Notes under the pieces: model-generated | Database searches by the model: none | What the model was told of the DNA's origin: nothing | The model's input: the letters and a program-made list of their open reading frames with translations, nothing else | Made by a program: the position numbers and the translations under genes | NCBI RefSeq assembly: GCF_000027125.1 | Contig: NC_017626.1 | Source: Escherichia coli 042 | GTDB taxonomy: Bacteria > Pseudomonadota > Gammaproteobacteria > Enterobacterales > Enterobacteriaceae | Reading direction: 5' to 3' (one strand) | Length of the DNA stretch: 64,000 nt | In this document: positions 6,319 through 28,408 of the stretch, piece after piece | How positions within the stretch are numbered: position 1 is the stretch's first letter | How the letters are laid out: each line of letters opens with the position of its first letter

Positions 6319-6855
6319 TTAATTTTGTTCGTTATCGGCGTCGCCAGCCTGGTAATATTCCAGCGCCCAGCGGATACGGATAAATTCTGTTGGCCGCTGC
6401 TGGCGGCGGTGATGATTGAGCAGATCGTCGCTCTCCTGGCACCAGCGGAAAATATCGTCTGCCAAAGAGATAAGATTGACGGAACCATTTAATAATTTGA
6501 CCGCGCGACGTAACTGGCGCAGTAATTCATCCGGCGTTTTGACTGCCGACAGGCGAGTAAAACGCCCCTCAGACATTACCGCCGCCAACTGCGCGGCAAA
6601 AAGCTGCCGTTCATCAATGGCTTTTACATTGGCGGCAACGGCGGCAACCAGCGCCAGTGCGGTAAAACGCCACTCCTGTGATTCAATTTTCCACAACGTG
6701 TGGGTCTGCATCAGCAGAGAACGAAACCCTTCTGACAGACAAACATCATTAACCGTTGTGCTACGCCGCAGACTGGCACGATTGCCTCGTTTTTCCTGCA
6801 ACTCTTCGTGCCATTTACGCAGCGTGGCTTTGTGCTCCTCTTTTACAATACTCAT
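6319..6855 (-). CDS. casB: Cse2 / CasB (Cascade small subunit)
   Basis: 178-aa ORF between casA and casC with ATGA-type overlap to casA; assignment mainly by operon position and size, sequence divergent from my memory of K-12 CasB. Confidence 0.75.
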   Translation of the reverse strand: MSIVKEEHKATLRKWHEELQEKRGNRASLRRSTTVNDVCLSEGFRSLLMQTHTLWKIESQEWRFTALALVAAVAANVKAIDERQLFAAQLAAVMSEGRFTRLSAVKTPDELLRQLRRAVKLLNGSVNLISLADDIFRWCQESDDLLNHHRRQQRPTEFIRIRWALEYYQAGDADNEQN

Positions 6856-8414
6856 TCAGCAGCCTCCTGCTTTTTCTCCCTGGCGGCTTTAGCACTTTGC
6901 TTCTCCGCCGATGTTGTAAAATATTTCTTGCGCGCGGTCATGACGCGTTTCAAATCAACGGGCTCATAAGGATTAGTGAATACACGCTCGTCAAAATCCT
7001 GACGCGCGAATAACCAAATTTCCTTTTGCCATTTGCCGAGTAATTCATCCGCATCCTGACCTTCTTCAATTTGGCGCACTAACCTCAGGAAGCGATGCTG
7101 AGTTTTGTTCCAGAAGTCGATATCCACAAAACTAAAATCACCCCGAGCACCTTTTGGATCGGAGAACCAGGCTTCTTTCAATGCACTCCGTAACAGACTT
7201 AGAATCCGTGAAGCCGTTTGCGCAACCAGCCGCAGCTTCGGTATCTGGCCTTCTTTTTTATTGAGCAGCAGCGGGAAATGGTGTTCGTACCAACAACGGG
7301 CTTTCATGTTGTCAAAATCATAACCAAATCCCCACAGGCCCACTTTTGTCTGCTTCAGACTGCTGGCATTAAAGAGTTTCACCACCAGCGCGGGAAGTTC
7401 CGTATTGTTTTCTGACTTACCCGTTTCGATAAGACCTAACCAGTCGCGCCAGATTAAACCGCCCGGTTGTGGTTTAACGGAGTAAAACTCACCGCCCTCT
7501 TTAAGTGGTACACGGTAAGGCGTTAAGGGATGCTGCCACATGGCATAATTCGCACCATAATTTTTGGTCGTCATCAGGCTCAGGAGCGAGTCATTCTGCT
7601 CGCCGCAAATATCGCAGTTGCCGACTGTCGTGGTATTAAAATCAATACGAATACGCCGCGGCATTCCCCAGTACGCCTGGAGTTTATTGACCTGATCATG
7701 GGTTACCACCGCACCGGCCAGTTCGCTGGTACGCGTCGGGCCAAGCCAGGGGAAAATCAGATCGTCAAATTTTTTGGGTAGCGGTAAGTCGGCTTCATCC
7801 TGCGGCATCACATTGAGCCACAGTTTGCGCCACAAGGGTGTTTGTTGATTGCCCTGATATTCCTGTAATTCAATCAGAGTGGTCATCGGCCCACCGCCGC
7901 GTAAACCGGTGCGATAGCCTTTGCCGCCTGACGGCGCATTTAACTGTAGGGAGAACAGAGCTAACGCAGAACAATGTGGGCACAGGTATTCCGTTACACC
8001 ACGCTTGATAAAGTGGTCTTTATTAAACTTCGTTGTTTGAGCGCCGGGAATCTCAGGCAGTAGCGAAGCGACCGGAATTTTATCTCCGGTGAGCGCCTCG
8101 AAATCCTGCATAAATGAAGGGGAATCTGGGCCAAACTGGAAAGCATGTTCTAAAGATAGCAATGCTTCCCGTAGCTTTTCAGCTTCCAGTCCGTCTTCCC
8201 AGATATCATCCCAACGACGATGATCTTTTGGCGCGAAGCTGGTTTGTAGTAGCCCCAGCAAAAACTGCCACGCCGCTCCCTGGAGATCTGCCCGCGGCGC
8301 AGCGATATCGACAACATTTTCATCCGCCAGATCGACTGGCGCCAGTTTGCCTGTTGTTCCGTCTTTAAAACGAACGGGCAACCACGGGGTTGTCAGAAGT
8401 GAAAACGAGTTCAT
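6852..8414 (-). CDS. casA: Cse1 / CasA (Cascade large subunit)
   Basis: Track ORF 6852..8483; I favour the start at MNSFSLLTTPWLPVRF (about 8414) with GAGAGG 6 nt upstream; the 8420 and 8483 starts remain possible. Size about 520 aa fits the Cse1 family. Confidence 0.8.
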   Translation of the reverse strand: MNSFSLLTTPWLPVRFKDGTTGKLAPVDLADENVVDIAAPRADLQGAAWQFLLGLLQTSFAPKDHRRWDDIWEDGLEAEKLREALLSLEHAFQFGPDSPSFMQDFEALTGDKIPVASLLPEIPGAQTTKFNKDHFIKRGVTEYLCPHCSALALFSLQLNAPSGGKGYRTGLRGGGPMTTLIELQEYQGNQQTPLWRKLWLNVMPQDEADLPLPKKFDDLIFPWLGPTRTSELAGAVVTHDQVNKLQAYWGMPRRIRIDFNTTTVGNCDICGEQNDSLLSLMTTKNYGANYAMWQHPLTPYRVPLKEGGEFYSVKPQPGGLIWRDWLGLIETGKSENNTELPALVVKLFNASSLKQTKVGLWGFGYDFDNMKARCWYEHHFPLLLNKKEGQIPKLRLVAQTASRILSLLRSALKEAWFSDPKGARGDFSFVDIDFWNKTQHRFLRLVRQIEEGQDADELLGKWQKEIWLFARQDFDERVFTNPYEPVDLKRVMTARKKYFTTSAEKQSAKAAREKKQEAAE

Positions 8415-8511
8415 ACGCATCCTCTCGTAAAAAAGACCATCCCAGGTCGGTTGTCCATCATTCCATCCTTTTGGGTGTATCAACTATTCAGAGAGCCCTG
8501 TCGCAGGCATC

Positions 8512-11169
8512 TCAACCAACCTTGCCAGTCAATCCTTCCATAGCCGAATACCCGCAACTTTCGTCATCGGTGACTAAAATCACGTTTGCCATCTCCGGAT
8601 CTTGCCGCTGTTCAATGCACCACTGCCTGAACGCATCCCCTTCCAGTAAAGAAAACTCATCCCGATGTTTTTTCCACCAGCTTCGACGCACTCTGACAAC
8701 GCTCATTTCCCATGCGTGAGCACCGGTGGCATAAGGCTTCACCACACCGTCAATACAGGTAGCCAGCCACAGGGAAACAGATTCCTCAGCCAGACGTGTC
8801 GACAGCTTTTCCGGAAGGTAATCGTTGATATTGGCGGCATAGCCAGGCTTGAAGTTCAGGACAAACTTTTTAGCCATTGCGCGATCGCAGTAATATTTGC
8901 CCACTTGCTCCTGCTCACTGCGGGCAAATCCTTCCGGCATTGCCACGTCTTCACCGTAGACTGATTCAATAAGAAGCCGGGCTGCGTGTGGCATCTGAAT
9001 AGCGCCTTGCTCACGCAGCACACGCTGCGTCAGCCAGATTCGCCCATGATCGGGGTAGACATATGCACTGTTACGCATGGCGCTGCCAAACCATTCGTCA
9101 CCCGGAGAGTCATCCCAGACGGGAGCCAGAATCAGCAATTCAGGAGGGGAACGCTCATCTTTTCCGTCACGCTTTAACTGACCATTAATATCGCGGATAT
9201 GCCGCTGTAATCGCCCCGCCCGCTGGATTAGCAAATCAATGTGGGCCAGGTCGGAGATCATTTCGTCCAGGTCACAATCGACGCTCTGCTCTAATACCTG
9301 AGTACAAATAAGGACTTTTCCGGCACGCTGTGAGTTACCTTCTTTACCAAAGCGTGCCAGCGTTTCCGTTTCAATTCGCTGGCGATCGCTAAAAGCAAAG
9401 CGGCTATGAAAAAGTGAAAGGCTGGAAGCGGGAATGACGCCGCGGGCAAGCAGCTGACGATGAACCTTAATAGCGTCATCGACAGAATTCCGGATCCAGG
9501 CGATGCATTTCCCCTGACTTACCGCCGATTCGATATGTGCAATACATTCTTGTTCGCTATGAAGCCAACCCACACACACGTTGCGCTCAACTTCTTTGCG
9601 CGTCGCTACCCGGTGCGAATGCAAATCGGATTTCGTGACATGCGTCAGCCATGGGTAATCATCCTTTTCAAGGAACGGAGCTTCTTGTTGGCCCTCTGCA
9701 CCACGCGCAAAGGCAGCGACGAGTTTGTCGCGCTGCTGTTGAGATAACGTAGCAGAAAGCAAAATGATACTGTTTCCGCCACGCGCCTGCCGCTCAATCA
9801 ATCCTTCAAGAATGCACGACATGTAAGCGTCACAGGCATGGATCTCATCAGCCAGCAGGATTTTTTTACTCAACCCCAGAAGCCGCAGATTATTATGTTT
9901 GAACGGCATCACCGCCATCATCGCCTGATCCAAGGTGCCGACGCCAATTTCAGCCAGCAACGCCTTCTTGTTACTGTCGGCAAACCAGGCCGCACATCCC
10001 TGGCTGAACGCTTGTTCATCCGGTTCTTCTGACCCGACTAAATCACCGGACCAGAGTGATTCATTGAAGCGGTCCATTAATGTATGGGCACTGTGTGCCA
10101 GCACCAGGCTGGGGCGGGATTCTGGCGAATAGAAAGCAAGCCAGGTTTTGACCAGCCGATCGTACATGGCATTGGCCGTTGCCATTGTTGGCAGGCCAAA
10201 AAACAAACCCTGAGCTTTCCCCGCAGCCATCAACCTGTGGACCATGATAAGCGCTGCTTCTGTTTTACCTGCGCCAGTCACATCCTCCAGAATAAATAAC
10301 TGTGGCCCAGGCTGGCTGATATCCAGATCCAGTACCTTTTGCTGTAACGGTGTCGGGTGCTCAATAAAAGGAAACAGTGTATTAATTCCGGTGAAAGGCG
10401 CGGTTTGTGCTTTTGGAGGAAAGACGGTTAAGGCGTTTTGAGCCTGAACTAAAGCCTTCTGCCAGTAATCTTTAATATCCATTGCCTGTGCAACGCGTGG
10501 AAAAAACCGCGTTGACGATCCCGTCCAGTCTGCGAGTACGACGGTTGCAGAGATATACCAGGAAAGTTGTTTTATAAGTTCAACGCCCTCGTCATCATCC
10601 CAGAATGTGGGGATCTCGATGAGCGGGAACAGTGTCTTGATTGCAAGGAGAAAATCTCGTGCGGCAGCTTTGTCTTCAGGCAGAAAATTATCCAGTTCAT
10701 CCATACGATCAGGAGGCTGACCATGATGCCCGGTAGTCATGGGCATCCACATCTCTATTACCCGTTTAAGTTTGCGGGGAGAGAGTGAAGATGAAGGAAG
10801 CAACTCTTCACATTCAATTAAATAATGATTCCACAACCAGTAGCCCAGCGTTGAATGAGAGATCTTTTCGTAATTTTTTCTTGCACTTTCCGGAACCTTG
10901 AGCTGTGGGTGCAGGTAAAGTTGCTGAAAAGAGCGGGCAAATTTTCCAGTATCGTGCCAACACAGCAACCAGGCGAAAAATTGTGCTGCCTGCTCCGTGT
11001 CAGCGATACCTAATTGACGAAAATAGTCAGCCAACCCGAAACAGTTGTTTTTGACCATTAAATAACCCGTCGCGGCTACATCCAGCGAATGCCAGCAAAG
11101 TAGATGATAGTCGTCGCCGCCCTCTTTCTCGCCACGTCGGGTTTTTCCCCAGAAATCAAAGAAAGTCAC
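8512..11169 (-). CDS. cas3: Cas3 helicase-nuclease (HD domain + DEAD/DEAH helicase), type I-E
   Basis: 885 aa; N-terminal HD motif (HSLDVA...H), helicase motif I (GAGKTEA), DExH-like LADEIH, motif VI QRAGRLQR. Confidence 0.93.
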   Translation of the reverse strand: MTFFDFWGKTRRGEKEGGDDYHLLCWHSLDVAATGYLMVKNNCFGLADYFRQLGIADTEQAAQFFAWLLCWHDTGKFARSFQQLYLHPQLKVPESARKNYEKISHSTLGYWLWNHYLIECEELLPSSSLSPRKLKRVIEMWMPMTTGHHGQPPDRMDELDNFLPEDKAAARDFLLAIKTLFPLIEIPTFWDDDEGVELIKQLSWYISATVVLADWTGSSTRFFPRVAQAMDIKDYWQKALVQAQNALTVFPPKAQTAPFTGINTLFPFIEHPTPLQQKVLDLDISQPGPQLFILEDVTGAGKTEAALIMVHRLMAAGKAQGLFFGLPTMATANAMYDRLVKTWLAFYSPESRPSLVLAHSAHTLMDRFNESLWSGDLVGSEEPDEQAFSQGCAAWFADSNKKALLAEIGVGTLDQAMMAVMPFKHNNLRLLGLSKKILLADEIHACDAYMSCILEGLIERQARGGNSIILLSATLSQQQRDKLVAAFARGAEGQQEAPFLEKDDYPWLTHVTKSDLHSHRVATRKEVERNVCVGWLHSEQECIAHIESAVSQGKCIAWIRNSVDDAIKVHRQLLARGVIPASSLSLFHSRFAFSDRQRIETETLARFGKEGNSQRAGKVLICTQVLEQSVDCDLDEMISDLAHIDLLIQRAGRLQRHIRDINGQLKRDGKDERSPPELLILAPVWDDSPGDEWFGSAMRNSAYVYPDHGRIWLTQRVLREQGAIQMPHAARLLIESVYGEDVAMPEGFARSEQEQVGKYYCDRAMAKKFVLNFKPGYAANINDYLPEKLSTRLAEESVSLWLATCIDGVVKPYATGAHAWEMSVVRVRRSWWKKHRDEFSLLEGDAFRQWCIEQRQDPEMANVILVTDDESCGYSAMEGLTGKVG

Positions 11170-11340
11170 AATGTTTTTATCCTTCAGTAAAACTTAAAGG
11201 ATATTTACGCATATATTAAAAATTATCTGTGATATATATCGTTCAATAAAACATTTACATTATGAATAATCAAATAGTTTTCATCCGTAATATATATGAA
11301 TAATAAACATAGGCATAATATTCACATAAACAATATAAAT
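11170..11340. promoter_or_regulatory. AT-rich cas3 upstream region (probable promoter / nucleoid-protein-bound region)
   Basis: About 170 bp of very AT-rich sequence immediately 5' of the cas3 start; H-NS silencing of E. coli cas promoters is established knowledge, its application here is inference. Confidence 0.5.
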
Positions 11341-11406
11341 TAAAAAAGGGTGCAGGAGACCAAACCATCACAATTCAGTACGCGGGGTTTTACCCCCGCG
11401 TGGTGG

Positions 11407-11559
11407 CTACTTCTTCGATTCGTAAGCGAGAACTGCCTTAAACTCCATACCACGTTCTCTGATACTCAACTCACACAACGAGTCGCCTACCATCAGCGTG
11501 AATCCCAGTACTGTACAACACAGTACGATGATTGCCACAAGGGCATATTTTGTCAGCAT
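11407..11559 (-). CDS. Hok/Gef-family type I toxin, 50 aa (HokE-like), unannotated small ORF
   Basis: Hand translation of the minus strand gives [50 protein letters not shown]; single TM helix, conserved Cys and C-terminal AYE motif, GGGAGG SD upstream, GC hairpin just 3' of the stop. Below the track size cut-off. Confidence 0.8.
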
Positions 11560-11823
11560 GTCTTGCCTCCCTGCAAAGAAGAGACTAACATTCGAATTGC
11601 TTAGGTTCGAACGCTGGCCTCAGGTTGATTGAAATATCGCCTGGGGCTTTTGTCCATCTGGAACCTCGCGAATGCTTAACGCCAGACAGCCTCAAGCACC
11701 CAACGCCATTCTATACCTGTTAATTTTCCCTGCGATGTTCACCTTTAAATGCCGGAATGCTGCTCGCAAAATAAAAACGCCCCCATCATTTCTGACAGAG
11801 GCGTTTAATTTATCCGGCAATAT

Positions 11824-27620: not shown

Positions 27621-27667
27621 GTGAGGAAGACCGGGCGGGAAACTGCCCGGCCTGAACATACCTGAAT

Positions 27668-27804
27668 GGTTATCCCCGCTGACGCGGGGAACATAAGTTC
27701 GACAACTTAAAAAATGATAACAAGTCCGGTTTATCCCCGCTGATGCAGGGAACATAATAAAAACTTTAACTAGTTCGGTTTATCCCTGTTTTTACAAGGA
27801 ATAT
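27668..27804 (-). CRISPR. degenerate CRISPR remnant (CRISPR2.2-like): about 3 decayed repeats
   Basis: Decayed repeat copies at about 27668 (GGTTATCCCCGCTGACGCGGGGAACAT), 27727 (CGGTTTATCCCCGCTGATGCAGGGAACAT) and 27776 (CGGTTTATCCCTGTTTTTACAAGGAATAT); spacing 59 then 49 bp. Confidence 0.7.
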
Positions 27805-28257: not shown

Positions 28258-28408
28258 TGGTTTATCCCCGCTGGCGCGGGGAACTCTTGGCATAGGCGCT
28301 ATAGCGGCGCTCTGTGTCCGGTTTATCCCCGCTGACGTGGGGAACTCAAAGACAAATTTCTTTGTTCCTATGGCCAGACCGGTTTATCCCCGCTGGCGCG
28401 GGGAACTC
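28258..28408 (-). CRISPR. CRISPR array (CRISPR2.3-like): 3 repeats, 2 spacers
   Basis: Repeats at about 28258, 28319, 28380 with 61-bp period, consensus CGGTTTATCCCCGCTGGCGCGGGGAACTC; the middle repeat carries GACGTGGGG. Confidence 0.9.

What the first reader, a model, noticed from the sequence alone, without database searches (positions are those of the whole stretch)
8415..8511. Very short cas3-casA spacer; casA start codon ambiguous
Only about 30-100 bp separate the cas3 stop (8512) from the possible casA starts (8483, 8420, 8414). In K-12 I recall a several-hundred-bp intergenic region carrying the H-NS-silenced Pcas promoter. Here Pcas would have to lie within the cas3 3' end, or cas3 and Cascade genes are co-transcribed from the AT-rich region at 11170-11340.
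Basis: inference. Interest (0 to 1): 0.35.

Follow-up and report, generated by a model that had tools for sequence, protein, structure and literature searches.

The report
Short cas3–casA spacer, E. coli I-E1
The 97-base gap between cas3 and casA is the normal spacer of the common non-K-12 form of the E. coli CRISPR-Cas locus: casA clearly starts at ATG 8414, the gap holds no promoter region like the one in K-12, and it does hold a small conserved RNA hairpin next to the ribosome-binding site.

Summary
The cas3 stop is at 8514-8512, and in-frame casA start candidates lie at 8483 (TTG), 8420 and 8414 (ATG). The start is not ambiguous. ATG 8414 is supported by Shine-Dalgarno spacing, by an 8-nt indel in E. 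albertii that puts TTG 8483 out of frame, by ATA replacing ATG 8420 in O157:H7, by 120 Cse1 N-termini and by RefSeq annotation.

The window carries the known "I-E1" cas variant, found in about 45% of complete E. coli genomes. Its spacer is 97 bp with GC 0.50; in K-12 the spacer is 414 bp with GC 0.30. It has no AT-rich DNA, no promoter match above chance, no CRISPR-like mini-array and no convincing terminator. In relatives the gap ranges from 11 bp (Salmonella cas-STM, Citrobacter) to more than 800 bp, and published surveys say short gaps are typical of I-E loci.

Most likely cas3 and the Cascade genes are transcribed together from the AT-rich region upstream of cas3. This is inferred; I found no transcription-start data for this variant.

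The last ~35 nt of the spacer are nearly invariant. They form a hairpin with GGA in its loop, 20 nt upstream of a GGA-containing Shine-Dalgarno sequence. The hairpin covaries across genera and matches the RsmA/CsrA site reported 5' of cas8e in Serratia. This is an ordinary finding of low to moderate interest.

The parts
8512..11169 (-). cas3 open reading frame as it stands in the window (GTG 11169 to TGA 8514-8512). In other strains the gene starts at the equivalent of ATG 11212.
   Evidence: ORF list; NCBIfam cas3_core and cas3_HD; PGAP annotation.
8415..8511 (-). cas3-casA intercistronic spacer, 97 nt, GC 0.495.
   Evidence: The length is identical in seven diverse E. coli I-E1 loci and is 89 nt in E. 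albertii and Escherichia sp..
8491..8513 (-). Imperfect hairpin overlapping the cas3 stop (GAGAUGCCUGCGACAGGGCUCUC, -10.7 kcal/mol) with no U-tract. It is probably the eroded remnant of the strong GC hairpin that follows cas3 in relatives with a long gap.
   Evidence: Folding of the post-stop 40 nt in 13 loci: -16 to -26 kcal/mol in seven of the eight long-gap loci, and -8 to -11 in Escherichia. The stem is not maintained among E. coli strains (alignment).
8481..8483 (-). TTG, the first in-frame start candidate. Rejected.
   Evidence: Weak Shine-Dalgarno pairing (-3.1 kcal/mol). An 8-nt indel in E. albertii and Escherichia sp. puts it out of frame with casA. No homologue carries such an N-terminal extension.
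8452..8467 (-). 8-bp tandem duplication GATGGAAT|GATGGACA, specific to E. coli. It accounts for the 97 vs 89 nt difference.
   Evidence: Alignment of E. coli, E. albertii and Escherichia sp..
8457..8483 (-). Best promoter-like match in the area: TTGATA (8483-8478), 15-nt spacer, TGgAATGAT (-10 at 8462-8457), predicted start near 8450. It is marginal.
   Evidence: PWM score 8.53, against a mean best score of 9.12 +/- 1.65 in shuffled sequence. The -10 element varies among E. coli strains (AAAGAT, AAGGAT) and is absent in E. albertii. The tool scan did not call it.
8435..8448 (-). Small hairpin GACC-UGGGAU-GGUC presenting GGA in its loop. In O157:H7 it is GACCA-GGGA-UGGUC.
   Evidence: MFE folds of 15 homologous 5' regions. 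Covariation: 89% of cells paired, 3 of 5 pairs with compensatory changes, score 0.49 vs 0.14 +/- 0.05 in shuffles, 0 of 500 shuffles as high. Hairpin energy -6.0 to -7.0 kcal/mol.
8429..8434 (-). T6 (U6) tract directly after the hairpin. Together they resemble a weak intrinsic terminator.
   Evidence: Not called in the window, where the stem has 4 pairs. Called terminator-like in the O157:H7 allele, where the stem has 5 pairs.
8420..8426 (-). Shine-Dalgarno region GAGAGGA (core GAGG 8424-8421). It contains the second GGA, 20 nt downstream of the loop GGA.
   Evidence: Anti-SD duplex -5.8 kcal/mol with a 5-6 nt spacer to ATG 8414. GAGAGGA is conserved in Intestinirhabdus and in the Salmonella locus L041.
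8418..8420 (-). ATG, the second start candidate. Rejected.
   Evidence: It abuts the SD core with zero spacing. It is ATA in O157:H7 SS17 and ATT in Intestinirhabdus and Salmonella L041.
6852..8414 (-). casA (cse1/cas8e), 520 aa, starting at ATG 8414-8412.
   Evidence: TIGR02547. PGAP start in 7 strains. The conserved Trp of the PWLPV motif is residue 11, as in 62 of 120 homologues, and residue 9-10 in 40 more. Residue 2 of the solved K-12 CasA aligns to residue 5.
11213..11400 (-). AT-rich region (GC about 0.28) between hok and cas3. This is the most likely site of the promoter(s) for cas3 and, by read-through, for casABCDE-cas1-cas2.
   Evidence: Composition profile. Most of the best-scoring sigma-70-like matches in 8300-11700 fall here or in the adjoining hok region, although none individually exceeds chance.

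Best explanation
Positions 8415-8511 are the intercistronic spacer between cas3 and casA (cse1/cas8e) in the E. coli 'I-E1' cas variant, which differs from the K-12 'I-E2' variant. casA starts at ATG 8414. The spacer does not contain what fills the 414-bp K-12 gap: AT-rich H-NS-type DNA, the Pcas promoter, or a CRISPR-like mini-array. The most likely arrangement is that cas3, casABCDE, cas1 and cas2 form one transcription unit driven from the AT-rich region upstream of cas3 (about 11213-11400). Ribosomes would then initiate independently at casA, using the GAGG Shine-Dalgarno sequence at 8424-8421. The casA-proximal third of the spacer is a conserved translation-control module: a small hairpin with GGA in its loop (8448-8435) lies 20 nt upstream of a second GGA inside the Shine-Dalgarno sequence. 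This is the classic two-site target of the CsrA/RsmA dimer, and CsrA would probably dampen casA translation. Shown here: the anatomy, the start codon, the absence of promoter, AT-rich and mini-array features, and the conservation and covariation of the hairpin. Inferred: co-transcription with cas3 and CsrA binding.
For: Start codon:
- SD spacing favours ATG 8414.
- An 8-nt indel removes TTG 8483 from the casA frame in E. albertii and Escherichia sp..
- ATG 8420 is ATA in O157:H7 and ATT in two other genera.
- The N-termini of 120 homologues place the conserved Trp where the 8414 start puts it.
- The K-12 CasA structure aligns from residue 5 of the 8414 protein.
- PGAP annotates this start in 7 strains.

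Variant identity:
- The locus is cysH-hok/sok-cas3...cas2-CRISPR-iap.
- It is 94-100% identical to O157:H7, E. coli W and other strains.
- Almendros et al. 2014 define the E1 and E2 variants (PMC3903273).

No local promoter:
- The tool scan finds none on the cas strand in 8400-8900.
- The best PWM hit is below the shuffled mean and is not conserved.
- GC is 0.48-0.53 here, against 0.28 upstream of cas3 and 0.295 in the K-12 gap.
- Third-codon-position diversity in the last 150 nt of cas3 (0.116) equals the gene-wide value (0.1125), so no embedded conserved element is evident.

Read-through is plausible:
- The post-cas3 hairpin has no U-tract.
- Relatives with 69-76% identical Cse1 have 11-28 bp gaps: Salmonella cas-STM, C. 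youngae, Phytobacter and E. kobei. A more distant relative, Serratia aquatilis (48% identical Cse1), has a 24-bp gap.
- Archaeal homologues have gaps of -4 to +13 bp.
- Kushwaha et al. call cas-STM 'contiguous' (PMC7712790).
- Shmakov et al. report gaps over 200 bp in only about 20% of I-E loci.
- In Serratia the major I-E promoter is at cas3 (PMC8450108).

Hairpin/SD module:
- The last ~35 nt of the spacer are nearly invariant, while spacer-wide diversity (0.057) is about half that of third codon positions.
- The hairpin is predicted in most of the 15 homologous leaders, including all Escherichia alleles but one (RM9245).
- It shows covariation.
Against: - I found no transcription-start, RT-PCR or RNA-seq evidence for the I-E1 variant, so co-transcription is unproven.
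- A marginal promoter-like site (TTGATA-15-TGgAATGAT) does lie in the spacer. Simple consensus scans miss many real promoters, including those dependent on LeuO or other activators.
- The hairpin plus U6 resembles a weak terminator in some alleles, which could limit read-through.
- GGA enrichment within this single spacer is marginal (5 observed vs 2.3 expected, P about 0.05).
- The hairpin alignment was assembled by hand around the GGA, and it has only 13 sequences and 5 pairs.
- I could not inspect the Serratia sequence itself to confirm positional homology.
- In this particular strain cas3 carries a 5' frameshift, so the locus may be decaying.
Confidence: 0.62

Rival explanations
1. A dedicated, weak Pcas-like promoter sits inside the spacer: -35 TTGATA at 8483-8478, 15-nt spacer, extended -10 TGgAATGAT at 8465-8457, start near 8450. 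It would produce a casA mRNA with a ~35-nt leader that begins at the GGA hairpin. The E. coli-specific 8-bp duplication would have created the -10 element.
For: It is the top-scoring sigma-70-like match in 8400-8900. The -35 element matches 5 of 6 positions. The duplication at 8452-8467 is what generates AATGAT.
Against: Its score of 8.53 is below the mean best score of shuffled sequence (9.12 +/- 1.65). The 15-nt spacer is suboptimal, and the tool scan did not call the site. The -10 element is AAAGAT or AAGGAT in other E. coli strains and is missing in E. albertii and Escherichia sp., while the rest of the module is conserved. The DNA is not AT-rich.
Confidence: 0.15
2. The Cascade promoter lies inside the 3' coding part of cas3, upstream of 8512. 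Cascade genes are then expressed independently of cas3, as in K-12 and S. Typhi.
For: Independent control of cas3 and Cascade is the rule in the two experimentally studied enterobacterial systems (K-12, and the S. Typhi cas-STY type). Internal promoters within coding DNA are common, and consensus scans detect them poorly.
Against: No promoter-like site scores above 5 in 8512-8900. GC is 0.50-0.53 there. Synonymous-site diversity in the last 150-300 nt of cas3 is not reduced (0.116 and 0.091 vs 0.1125 gene-wide). The S. Typhi data come from a different variant with an inverted cas3 and a 357-nt gap.
Confidence: 0.1
3. The hairpin at 8448-8435 plus U6 is an intrinsic terminator or attenuator that ends most cas3 transcripts. 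The Cascade genes would then be poorly expressed or silent in I-E1 strains, and the conserved hairpin would serve termination rather than CsrA binding.
For: The O157:H7 allele satisfies a terminator-like pattern: 5-bp stem, 3 G-C pairs, T6. The T-tract is invariant in Escherichia.
Against: The stem has only 4-5 bp and -6 to -7 kcal/mol, far weaker than typical terminators. The window allele fails the pattern. The homologous hairpins in Klebsiella, Cronobacter, Pectobacterium and Atlantibacter have no U-tract, yet all keep GGA in the loop, which points to the loop sequence as the selected feature. No room remains downstream for a promoter.
Confidence: 0.1
4. casA starts at TTG 8483 or ATG 8420, giving a CasA longer by 23 or 2 residues and a spacer of only 28 or 91 nt.
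For: Both codons are in frame with no intervening stop. ATG 8420 is conserved in most Escherichia sequences examined.
Against: See the start-codon evidence under the best explanation: the frame-breaking indel, ATA/ATT substitutions at 8420, zero or poor SD spacing, the N-termini of homologues and the solved K-12 CasA. The 23-residue extension has no Pfam match.
Confidence: 0.03

Closest known systems
[quoted passage not shown] 2014, mBio, PMC3903273). The same variant is found in O157:H7 and E. coli W.
   Same: Gene order and chromosomal position are the same (cysH-hok/sok-cas3-casABCDE-cas1-cas2-CRISPR-iap). Nucleotide identity is 94-100%. The 97-bp cas3-casA spacer and the annotated casA start are identical.
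   Different: Nothing essential differs. This strain's cas3 has a +1 T frameshift near its 5' end.
E. coli K-12 (I-E2) cas3-casA intergenic region with the H-NS-silenced, LeuO-activated Pcas promoter and a CRISPR-like mini-array (Pul 2010 and Westra 2010, as cited; Shmakov 2023).
   Same: It occupies the same position between cas3 and casA in an orthologous locus, with casA as the first Cascade gene.
   Different: The K-12 region is 414 bp with GC 0.295 and carries a repeat-like remnant. The window's spacer is 97 bp with GC 0.495, has no repeat-like sequence and no promoter match above chance. The Cas proteins are only distantly related: CasA scores 108 bits against the K-12-type model, whose cut-off is 576.
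Salmonella enterica cas-STM type, Citrobacter youngae and Phytobacter I-E loci with contiguous cas3-cse1.
   Same: Cse1 is 74-76% identical. Gene order and orientation are the same, with cas3 directly upstream of cse1.
   Different: Their gap is 11 bp, with no hairpin module. The E. coli I-E1 spacer keeps 97 bp that include the GGA hairpin.
RsmA (CsrA) site 5' of cas8e in the Serratia sp. ATCC 39006 type I-E operon (Campa et al. 2021, NAR, PMC8450108).
   Same: It is described as a GGA in the loop of a predicted hairpin next to a GGA within the cas8e RBS, in an operon whose major promoter is at cas3. The window shows the same architecture at the same gene junction.
   Different: Binding was shown by RIP-seq in Serratia only. 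I tested nothing for E. coli, and I could not retrieve the Serratia sequence to align it.
CreR / regulatory mini-arrays between cas3 and cas8e (Liu et al. 2023, bioRxiv 10.1101/2023.03.10.532045; Shmakov et al. 2023, 10.1101/2023.03.03.530964).
   Same: Relatives with 420-860 bp gaps carry an inverted two-repeat mini-array right after cas3, as these papers describe for I-E.
   Different: The mini-array is absent from the window: the best match is 14 of 29, which is chance level. [quoted passage not shown]

Membership tests
[quoted passage not shown] | Full I-E gene set in the order cas3-cse1-cse2-cas7-cas5-cas6e-cas1-cas2 | tested here: met
   All eight ORFs exceed the curated NCBIfam cut-offs for I-E models.
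[quoted passage not shown] | Located between cysH and iap, with hok/sok upstream of cas3 (E1 strains keep hok/sok; E2 strains do not) | tested here: met
   Annotation of an identical strain. Rfam sok hit at 11544-11701. The criterion comes from Almendros 2014.
[quoted passage not shown] | Sequence is of the O157:H7 type, not the K-12 type | tested here: met
   96% nucleotide identity to O157:H7 SS17. The K-12-type models NF007247 and NF007248 score below their cut-offs.
K-12-type Pcas regulatory intergenic region | Several-hundred-bp AT-rich region between cas3 and casA | tested here: not met
   97 bp with GC 0.495, against 414 bp with GC 0.295 in K-12.
K-12-type Pcas regulatory intergenic region | Sigma-70 promoter upstream of casA | tested here: inconclusive
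   The only candidate is marginal and not conserved. No experimental data were found.
K-12-type Pcas regulatory intergenic region | Binding and silencing by H-NS, activation by LeuO | not testable with these tools
   This needs ChIP, footprinting or reporter assays.
CsrA/RsmA translational-repression site | GGA motif in the loop of a short hairpin | tested here: met
   Predicted in the window and in most of 15 homologous leaders. The stem covaries.
CsrA/RsmA translational-repression site | Second GGA overlapping the Shine-Dalgarno sequence, 10-63 nt from the first (the range is from my own knowledge of the CsrA literature) | tested here: met
   GAGAGGA at 8426-8420. The two GGA motifs are 20 nt apart in E. 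coli and in Salmonella L041.
CsrA/RsmA translational-repression site | Physical binding by CsrA and CsrA-dependent expression | not testable with these tools
   Only the Serratia precedent is available (RIP-seq and reporters).
Intrinsic (Rho-independent) terminator | G+C-rich stem of at least 5 bp followed by a U-tract | tested here: inconclusive
   The window allele has a 4-bp stem and is not called. The O157 allele has a 5-bp stem and is called. Energy is only -6 to -7 kcal/mol.
CreR / CRISPR-like mini-array | Two repeat-like sequences flanking a spacer-like sequence between cas3 and cas8e | tested here: not met
   The best 29-mer match in the spacer is 14 of 29, equal to the shuffled expectation. 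Long-gap relatives reach 21-27 of 29.

The most novel reading that the evidence does not exclude
In the I-E1 variant, carried by about 45% of complete E. coli genomes, Cascade expression may have been rewired. The H-NS/LeuO-controlled Pcas promoter and the CreR-type autoregulatory mini-array of the long-gap ancestor would have been deleted. What remains is an eight-gene operon driven from the cas3 promoter, with the Cascade:Cas3 ratio set after transcription by CsrA acting on the conserved GGA hairpin and SD at 8448-8420. That would tie CRISPR immunity in most wild E. coli to the Csr carbon and stress network rather than to the K-12 regulatory model.
Probability: 0.3. Interest if true: 0.5.

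Novelty: new member of a known kind. Interest (0 to 1): 0.25.

Why it matters
Almost everything known about E. coli CRISPR-Cas regulation comes from K-12 (the I-E2 variant): H-NS silencing, LeuO activation, Pcas and the mini-array. The window shows that the I-E1 variant, found in O157:H7, O111, E. coli W and many commensals, has none of that regulatory DNA between cas3 and casA. K-12 rules should therefore not be transferred to it. If co-transcription and CsrA control hold, Cas3 and Cascade would be produced from one mRNA, with translation-level tuning. The practical gains are modest: a firm casA start for annotation and expression constructs, and a short defined RNA element (8448-8420) that can be tested directly.

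Tried and rejected
- Longer CasA from TTG 8483 or ATG 8420. Rejected on the indel, substitutions, SD spacing and homologue N-termini.
- S. Typhi casA promoter work as a model. Rejected because S. Typhi carries the cas-STY variant, with an inverted cas3 and a 357-nt gap. The primary paper (PMC3133143) is not held.
- Known RNA families. Rfam finds nothing in 8000-11400 except sok and a sub-threshold ctRNA hit further upstream. It finds nothing in the long gaps of relatives either.
- Antisense ORF 8390-8719(+) and the 23-residue upstream extension. Neither has a Pfam match.
- An 8-codon mini-ORF at 8510-8484 (MPATGLSE*). Its ATG is ATA in O157:H7, so I treated it as chance.
- The post-cas3 hairpin as a terminator. 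It has no U-tract and its stem is not maintained among E. coli strains.
- A hidden repeat-like or CreR element in the spacer or upstream of cas3. None is present.
- Self-targets of the mini-array spacers in relatives' gaps. No exact match of 9 nt or more was found (the longest was 8 nt), so I do not claim these are functional CreR genes.
- Transcription-start data for I-E1 strains. Five literature searches found none.
- The Serratia hairpin sequence in the paper's supplement. The figure is held only as an image.

Full report
**What is there.**
- The cas genes lie on the minus strand. The ORF list and NCBIfam identify, in order: cas3 (8512-11169), casA/cse1 (frame open from 8483, ending at 6852), casB, cas7, cas5, cas6e, cas1 and cas2. 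A CRISPR array follows at 2159-2553.
- cas3 ends with TGA at 8514-8512. The casA frame has three in-frame start candidates: TTG 8483, ATG 8420 and ATG 8414.
- A 100%-identical RefSeq strain, and six E. coli strains spanning 94-97% identity, are all annotated with the cas3 stop and the casA start at these positions. The gap is 97 bp in each.

**Which locus this is.**
- The junction occurs in 2450 of 5426 complete E. coli genomes.
- The locus sits between cysH and iap, with hok/sok upstream of cas3.
- It is 96% identical to O157:H7.
- Its CasA and Cas3 score below the curated cut-offs of the K-12-type NCBIfam models.
- This is the "cas-E1 / I-E1" variant defined by Almendros et al. 2014. K-12 carries the other variant, E2 (PMC3903273).
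In the window the gap is 97 bp with GC 0.495. The only AT-rich stretch (GC about 0.28) lies upstream of cas3, at about 11170-11400.

**The start codon is not ambiguous.**
1. The anti-Shine-Dalgarno duplex with GAGG (8424-8421) is -5.8 kcal/mol and lies 5-6 nt from ATG 8414. The same core directly abuts ATG 8420. TTG 8483 has only a -3.1 kcal/mol pairing.
2. E. albertii and Escherichia sp. MOD1 have CasA proteins 95-97% identical to the window's. Both lack 8 nt of the spacer, which puts TTG 8483 out of frame with casA.
3. The codon at the 8420 position is ATA in O157:H7 SS17. It is ATT in Intestinirhabdus and in one Salmonella lineage, while the downstream ATG is kept.
4. Among 120 Cse1 homologues, the conserved Trp of the PWLPV motif is residue 11 in 62 and residue 9-10 in 40. 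The 8414 start gives residue 11. The other starts would give residue 13 or 34.
5. Residue 2 of the solved K-12 CasA aligns to residue 5 of the 8414 protein.

Homologue starts are mostly gene-caller predictions. The indel and the substitutions are independent of them.

**Is there a promoter in or near the spacer?**
- The tool scan finds no sigma-70-like site on the cas strand between 8400 and 8900.
- My PWM scan finds one candidate: TTGATA at 8483, a 15-nt spacer, and TGgAATGAT at 8465-8457.
  - Its score (8.53) is below the mean best score of shuffled sequence (9.12 +/- 1.65).
  - Its -10 element is partly created by an E. coli-specific 8-bp tandem duplication (8452-8467).
  - That element varies among E. 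coli strains and is absent in E. albertii.
- Nothing inside the cas3 3' end scores above 5.
- Third-codon-position diversity in the last 150 nt of cas3 (0.116) equals the gene-wide value (0.1125). No conserved element appears to be embedded there.
- The hairpin overlapping the cas3 stop (-10.7 kcal/mol) has no U-tract, and its stem is not maintained among strains.

**Comparative picture.**

| Locus | cas3-cse1 gap |
|---|---|
| Methanosarcinales archaeal homologues | -4 to +13 bp |
| Salmonella cas-STM, Citrobacter youngae, Phytobacter | 11 bp |
| Serratia aquatilis, Enterobacter kobei | 24-28 bp |
| Escherichia | 89-97 bp |
| K. indica, Intestinirhabdus | 151-176 bp |
| Another S. enterica lineage, Cronobacter, K. 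aerogenes, C. rodentium, K. spallanzanii, Atlantibacter | 420-500 bp |
| Chimaeribacter | about 860 bp |
| Pectobacterium (higBA pair inserted) | 2127 bp |

- Kushwaha et al. describe Salmonella cas-STM as contiguous. They describe cas-STY (Typhi) as having an inverted cas3 and a 357-nt gap. The S. Typhi promoter studies therefore concern a different variant.
- Shmakov et al. report gaps over 200 bp between cas3 and cas8 in only about 20% of I-E loci. They describe the typical I-E locus as lacking room for an extra RNA gene.
- In Serratia the major promoter of the I-E operon is at cas3.

The short E. coli I-E1 spacer is thus the ordinary state for I-E loci, and K-12 belongs to the minority.

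**What the long gaps contain and the window lacks.**
- Seven of the eight long gaps start with a strong GC hairpin (-16 to -26 kcal/mol, covarying) right after the cas3 stop. Pectobacterium, whose gap holds the higBA insertion, is the exception.
- In these seven loci a reversed I-E repeat then follows at 23-36 nt (21-27 of 29 matches; shuffles reach 19 at most). In Pectobacterium the reversed repeat lies about 1.5 kb downstream of the cas3 stop.
- A second, degenerate reversed repeat lies 50-60 nt further on in those seven loci.
- K-12 keeps one such degenerate repeat.
- This is the mini-array / creR element already described for I-E by Shmakov et al. and by Liu et al., who showed a Salmonella CreR repressing PcasA.
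- The window has no repeat-like sequence in the spacer or upstream of cas3.
- By alignment, the E. coli spacer looks like a deletion derivative. It keeps an eroded copy of the post-cas3 hairpin and the casA-proximal ~45 nt.

**The conserved proximal module.**
- Spacer diversity among E. coli strains (0.057) is about half that of third codon positions (0.09-0.12). The last ~35 nt are nearly invariant.
- They contain a hairpin, GACC-UGGGAU-GGUC (8448-8435), which is GACCA-GGGA-UGGUC in O157:H7. A U6 tract and then GAGAGGA follow.
- Most examined homologues with a gap of 89 bp or more have a hairpin at the equivalent place, with NGGA in the loop but a different stem (it is not clearly formed in Intestinirhabdus): GGCCA/UGGCU, GCGCCA/UGGCGC, GGCC/GGCC, CCGCA/UGCGG.
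- On a 13-sequence alignment, 89% of cells pair, 3 of 5 pairs show compensatory changes, and the covariation score is 0.49 against 0.14 +/- 0.05 in shuffles (0 of 500 as high). Slid controls drop to 17-43% paired.
- Caveats: I chose the segments by eye around the GGA, the helix is short, and the shuffle control ignores phylogeny.
- The two GGA motifs are 20 nt apart, one in the loop and one in the Shine-Dalgarno sequence. This is the canonical CsrA two-site arrangement (my own knowledge of the CsrA literature).
- Campa et al. report for the Serratia I-E operon an RsmA RIP-seq signal and "another RsmA binding site ... [quoted passage not shown]
- I could not retrieve that sequence to align it, so homology of the two sites is inferred.

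**Most likely mechanism.**
- Transcription starts in the AT-rich DNA upstream of cas3, which is probably H-NS-prone, and reads through the spacer into casABCDE-cas1-cas2.
- casA is translated from ATG 8414 using its own Shine-Dalgarno sequence.
- CsrA probably binds the loop GGA and the SD GGA and lowers casA translation.
- Confidence by step: start codon about 0.95; absence of a K-12-like regulatory region about 0.95; co-transcription about 0.65-0.7; CsrA control about 0.4-0.45.
- Rivals are a weak spacer promoter (0.15), a promoter inside cas3 (0.1), and a hairpin-U6 attenuator (0.1; the O157 allele is called terminator-like).

**Verdict.**
- The finding is real but ordinary.
- It is the known I-E1 arrangement with a well-supported start codon, and a short cas3-cas8e gap is typical of I-E systems.
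- What is modestly new is the recognition that the I-E1 spacer retains a covarying GGA hairpin and SD module of the kind shown to bind RsmA in Serratia.
- It is also modestly new that I-E1 lacks the Pcas and mini-array regulatory DNA on which the K-12 model rests.

Noticed in passing
window 11177-11212 (minus strand): cas3 in this window has an extra T in a T-run (AAGTTTTACTG at 11189-11192, against AAGTTTACTG in six other I-E1 strains). This frameshifts codon 8 of the 899-aa Cas3 that starts at ATG 11212 and creates an in-frame TAA at 11179-11177. PGAP calls the identical gene 'frameshifted'. A GTG at 11169 could restart an 885-aa product that still has the HD and helicase domains.
   Followed up: partly
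L041 4081-4200; L006 2165-2290; L055, L054, L009, L052, L010 (first ~120 nt after the cas3 stop); L049 (K-12) about 8480-8510: Relatives with long cas3-cse1 gaps carry a covarying 8-10 bp GC hairpin immediately after the cas3 stop, followed by an inverted two-repeat mini-array (21-27 of 29 matches to the I-E repeat). K-12 keeps one degenerate copy. This matches the published mini-array / creR elements. I found no exact self-target of 9 nt or more (longest 8 nt) for the spacers within those gaps.
   Followed up: partly
window 11407-11701 (minus strand): A hok/sok toxin-antitoxin locus lies between cysH and cas3: a Hok/Gef ORF at 11407-11559 and an Rfam sok hit at 11544-11701 (110 bits). It is transcribed in the same direction as cas3 and is followed by a GC hairpin (CGCGGGG...CCCCGCG) at about 11375-11400.
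   Followed up: no
window 27666-27800 and 28258-28408: Two further short clusters of I-E repeat-like 29-mers (25-27 of 29 matches, 61-bp spacing). They are presumably the second E. coli CRISPR locus (CRISPR2.2-2.3).
   Followed up: no
L025-L033, L036 (Methanosarcinales, Methanoperedenaceae): Archaeal genomes encode Cse1 and Cas3 that are 37-41% identical to the E. coli I-E1 proteins, with cas3 and cse1 overlapping or at most 13 bp apart in most of them. They are closer to I-E1 than many bacterial I-E systems are, which suggests inter-domain transfer.
   Followed up: no
L002 (JAIJJM010000114.1, 'Collinsella sp.' MAG): A 7-kb contig binned as Collinsella carries cas3-casA that is 95-97% identical to E. 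coli I-E1, including the same 97-bp spacer. This is almost certainly a mis-binned E. coli contig.
   Followed up: no
L051 2363-3202 (Pectobacterium carotovorum): A higB/HTH antitoxin pair is inserted, in antisense orientation, between cas3 and cse1 (2127-bp gap). A reversed repeat (25 of 29) lies about 580 bp upstream of cse1. This fits the reported enrichment of toxin-antitoxin genes next to I-E mini-arrays.
   Followed up: no
L048 1-436 (E. coli O111:H8): An IS421 (IS4-like) transposase replaces the cysH-hok region upstream of cas3. It ends about 350 bp before the cas3 start, so the putative cas3 and operon promoter context differs in this lineage.
   Followed up: no
window 8662-8680 (minus strand): A terminator-like hairpin plus T-run (CTGGTGGAAAAAACATCGG GATGAGTTTT) lies inside the cas3 coding sequence, about 150 nt before its stop. 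It is also present in O157:H7. The number of such matches in the region is at the level expected by chance.
   Followed up: no
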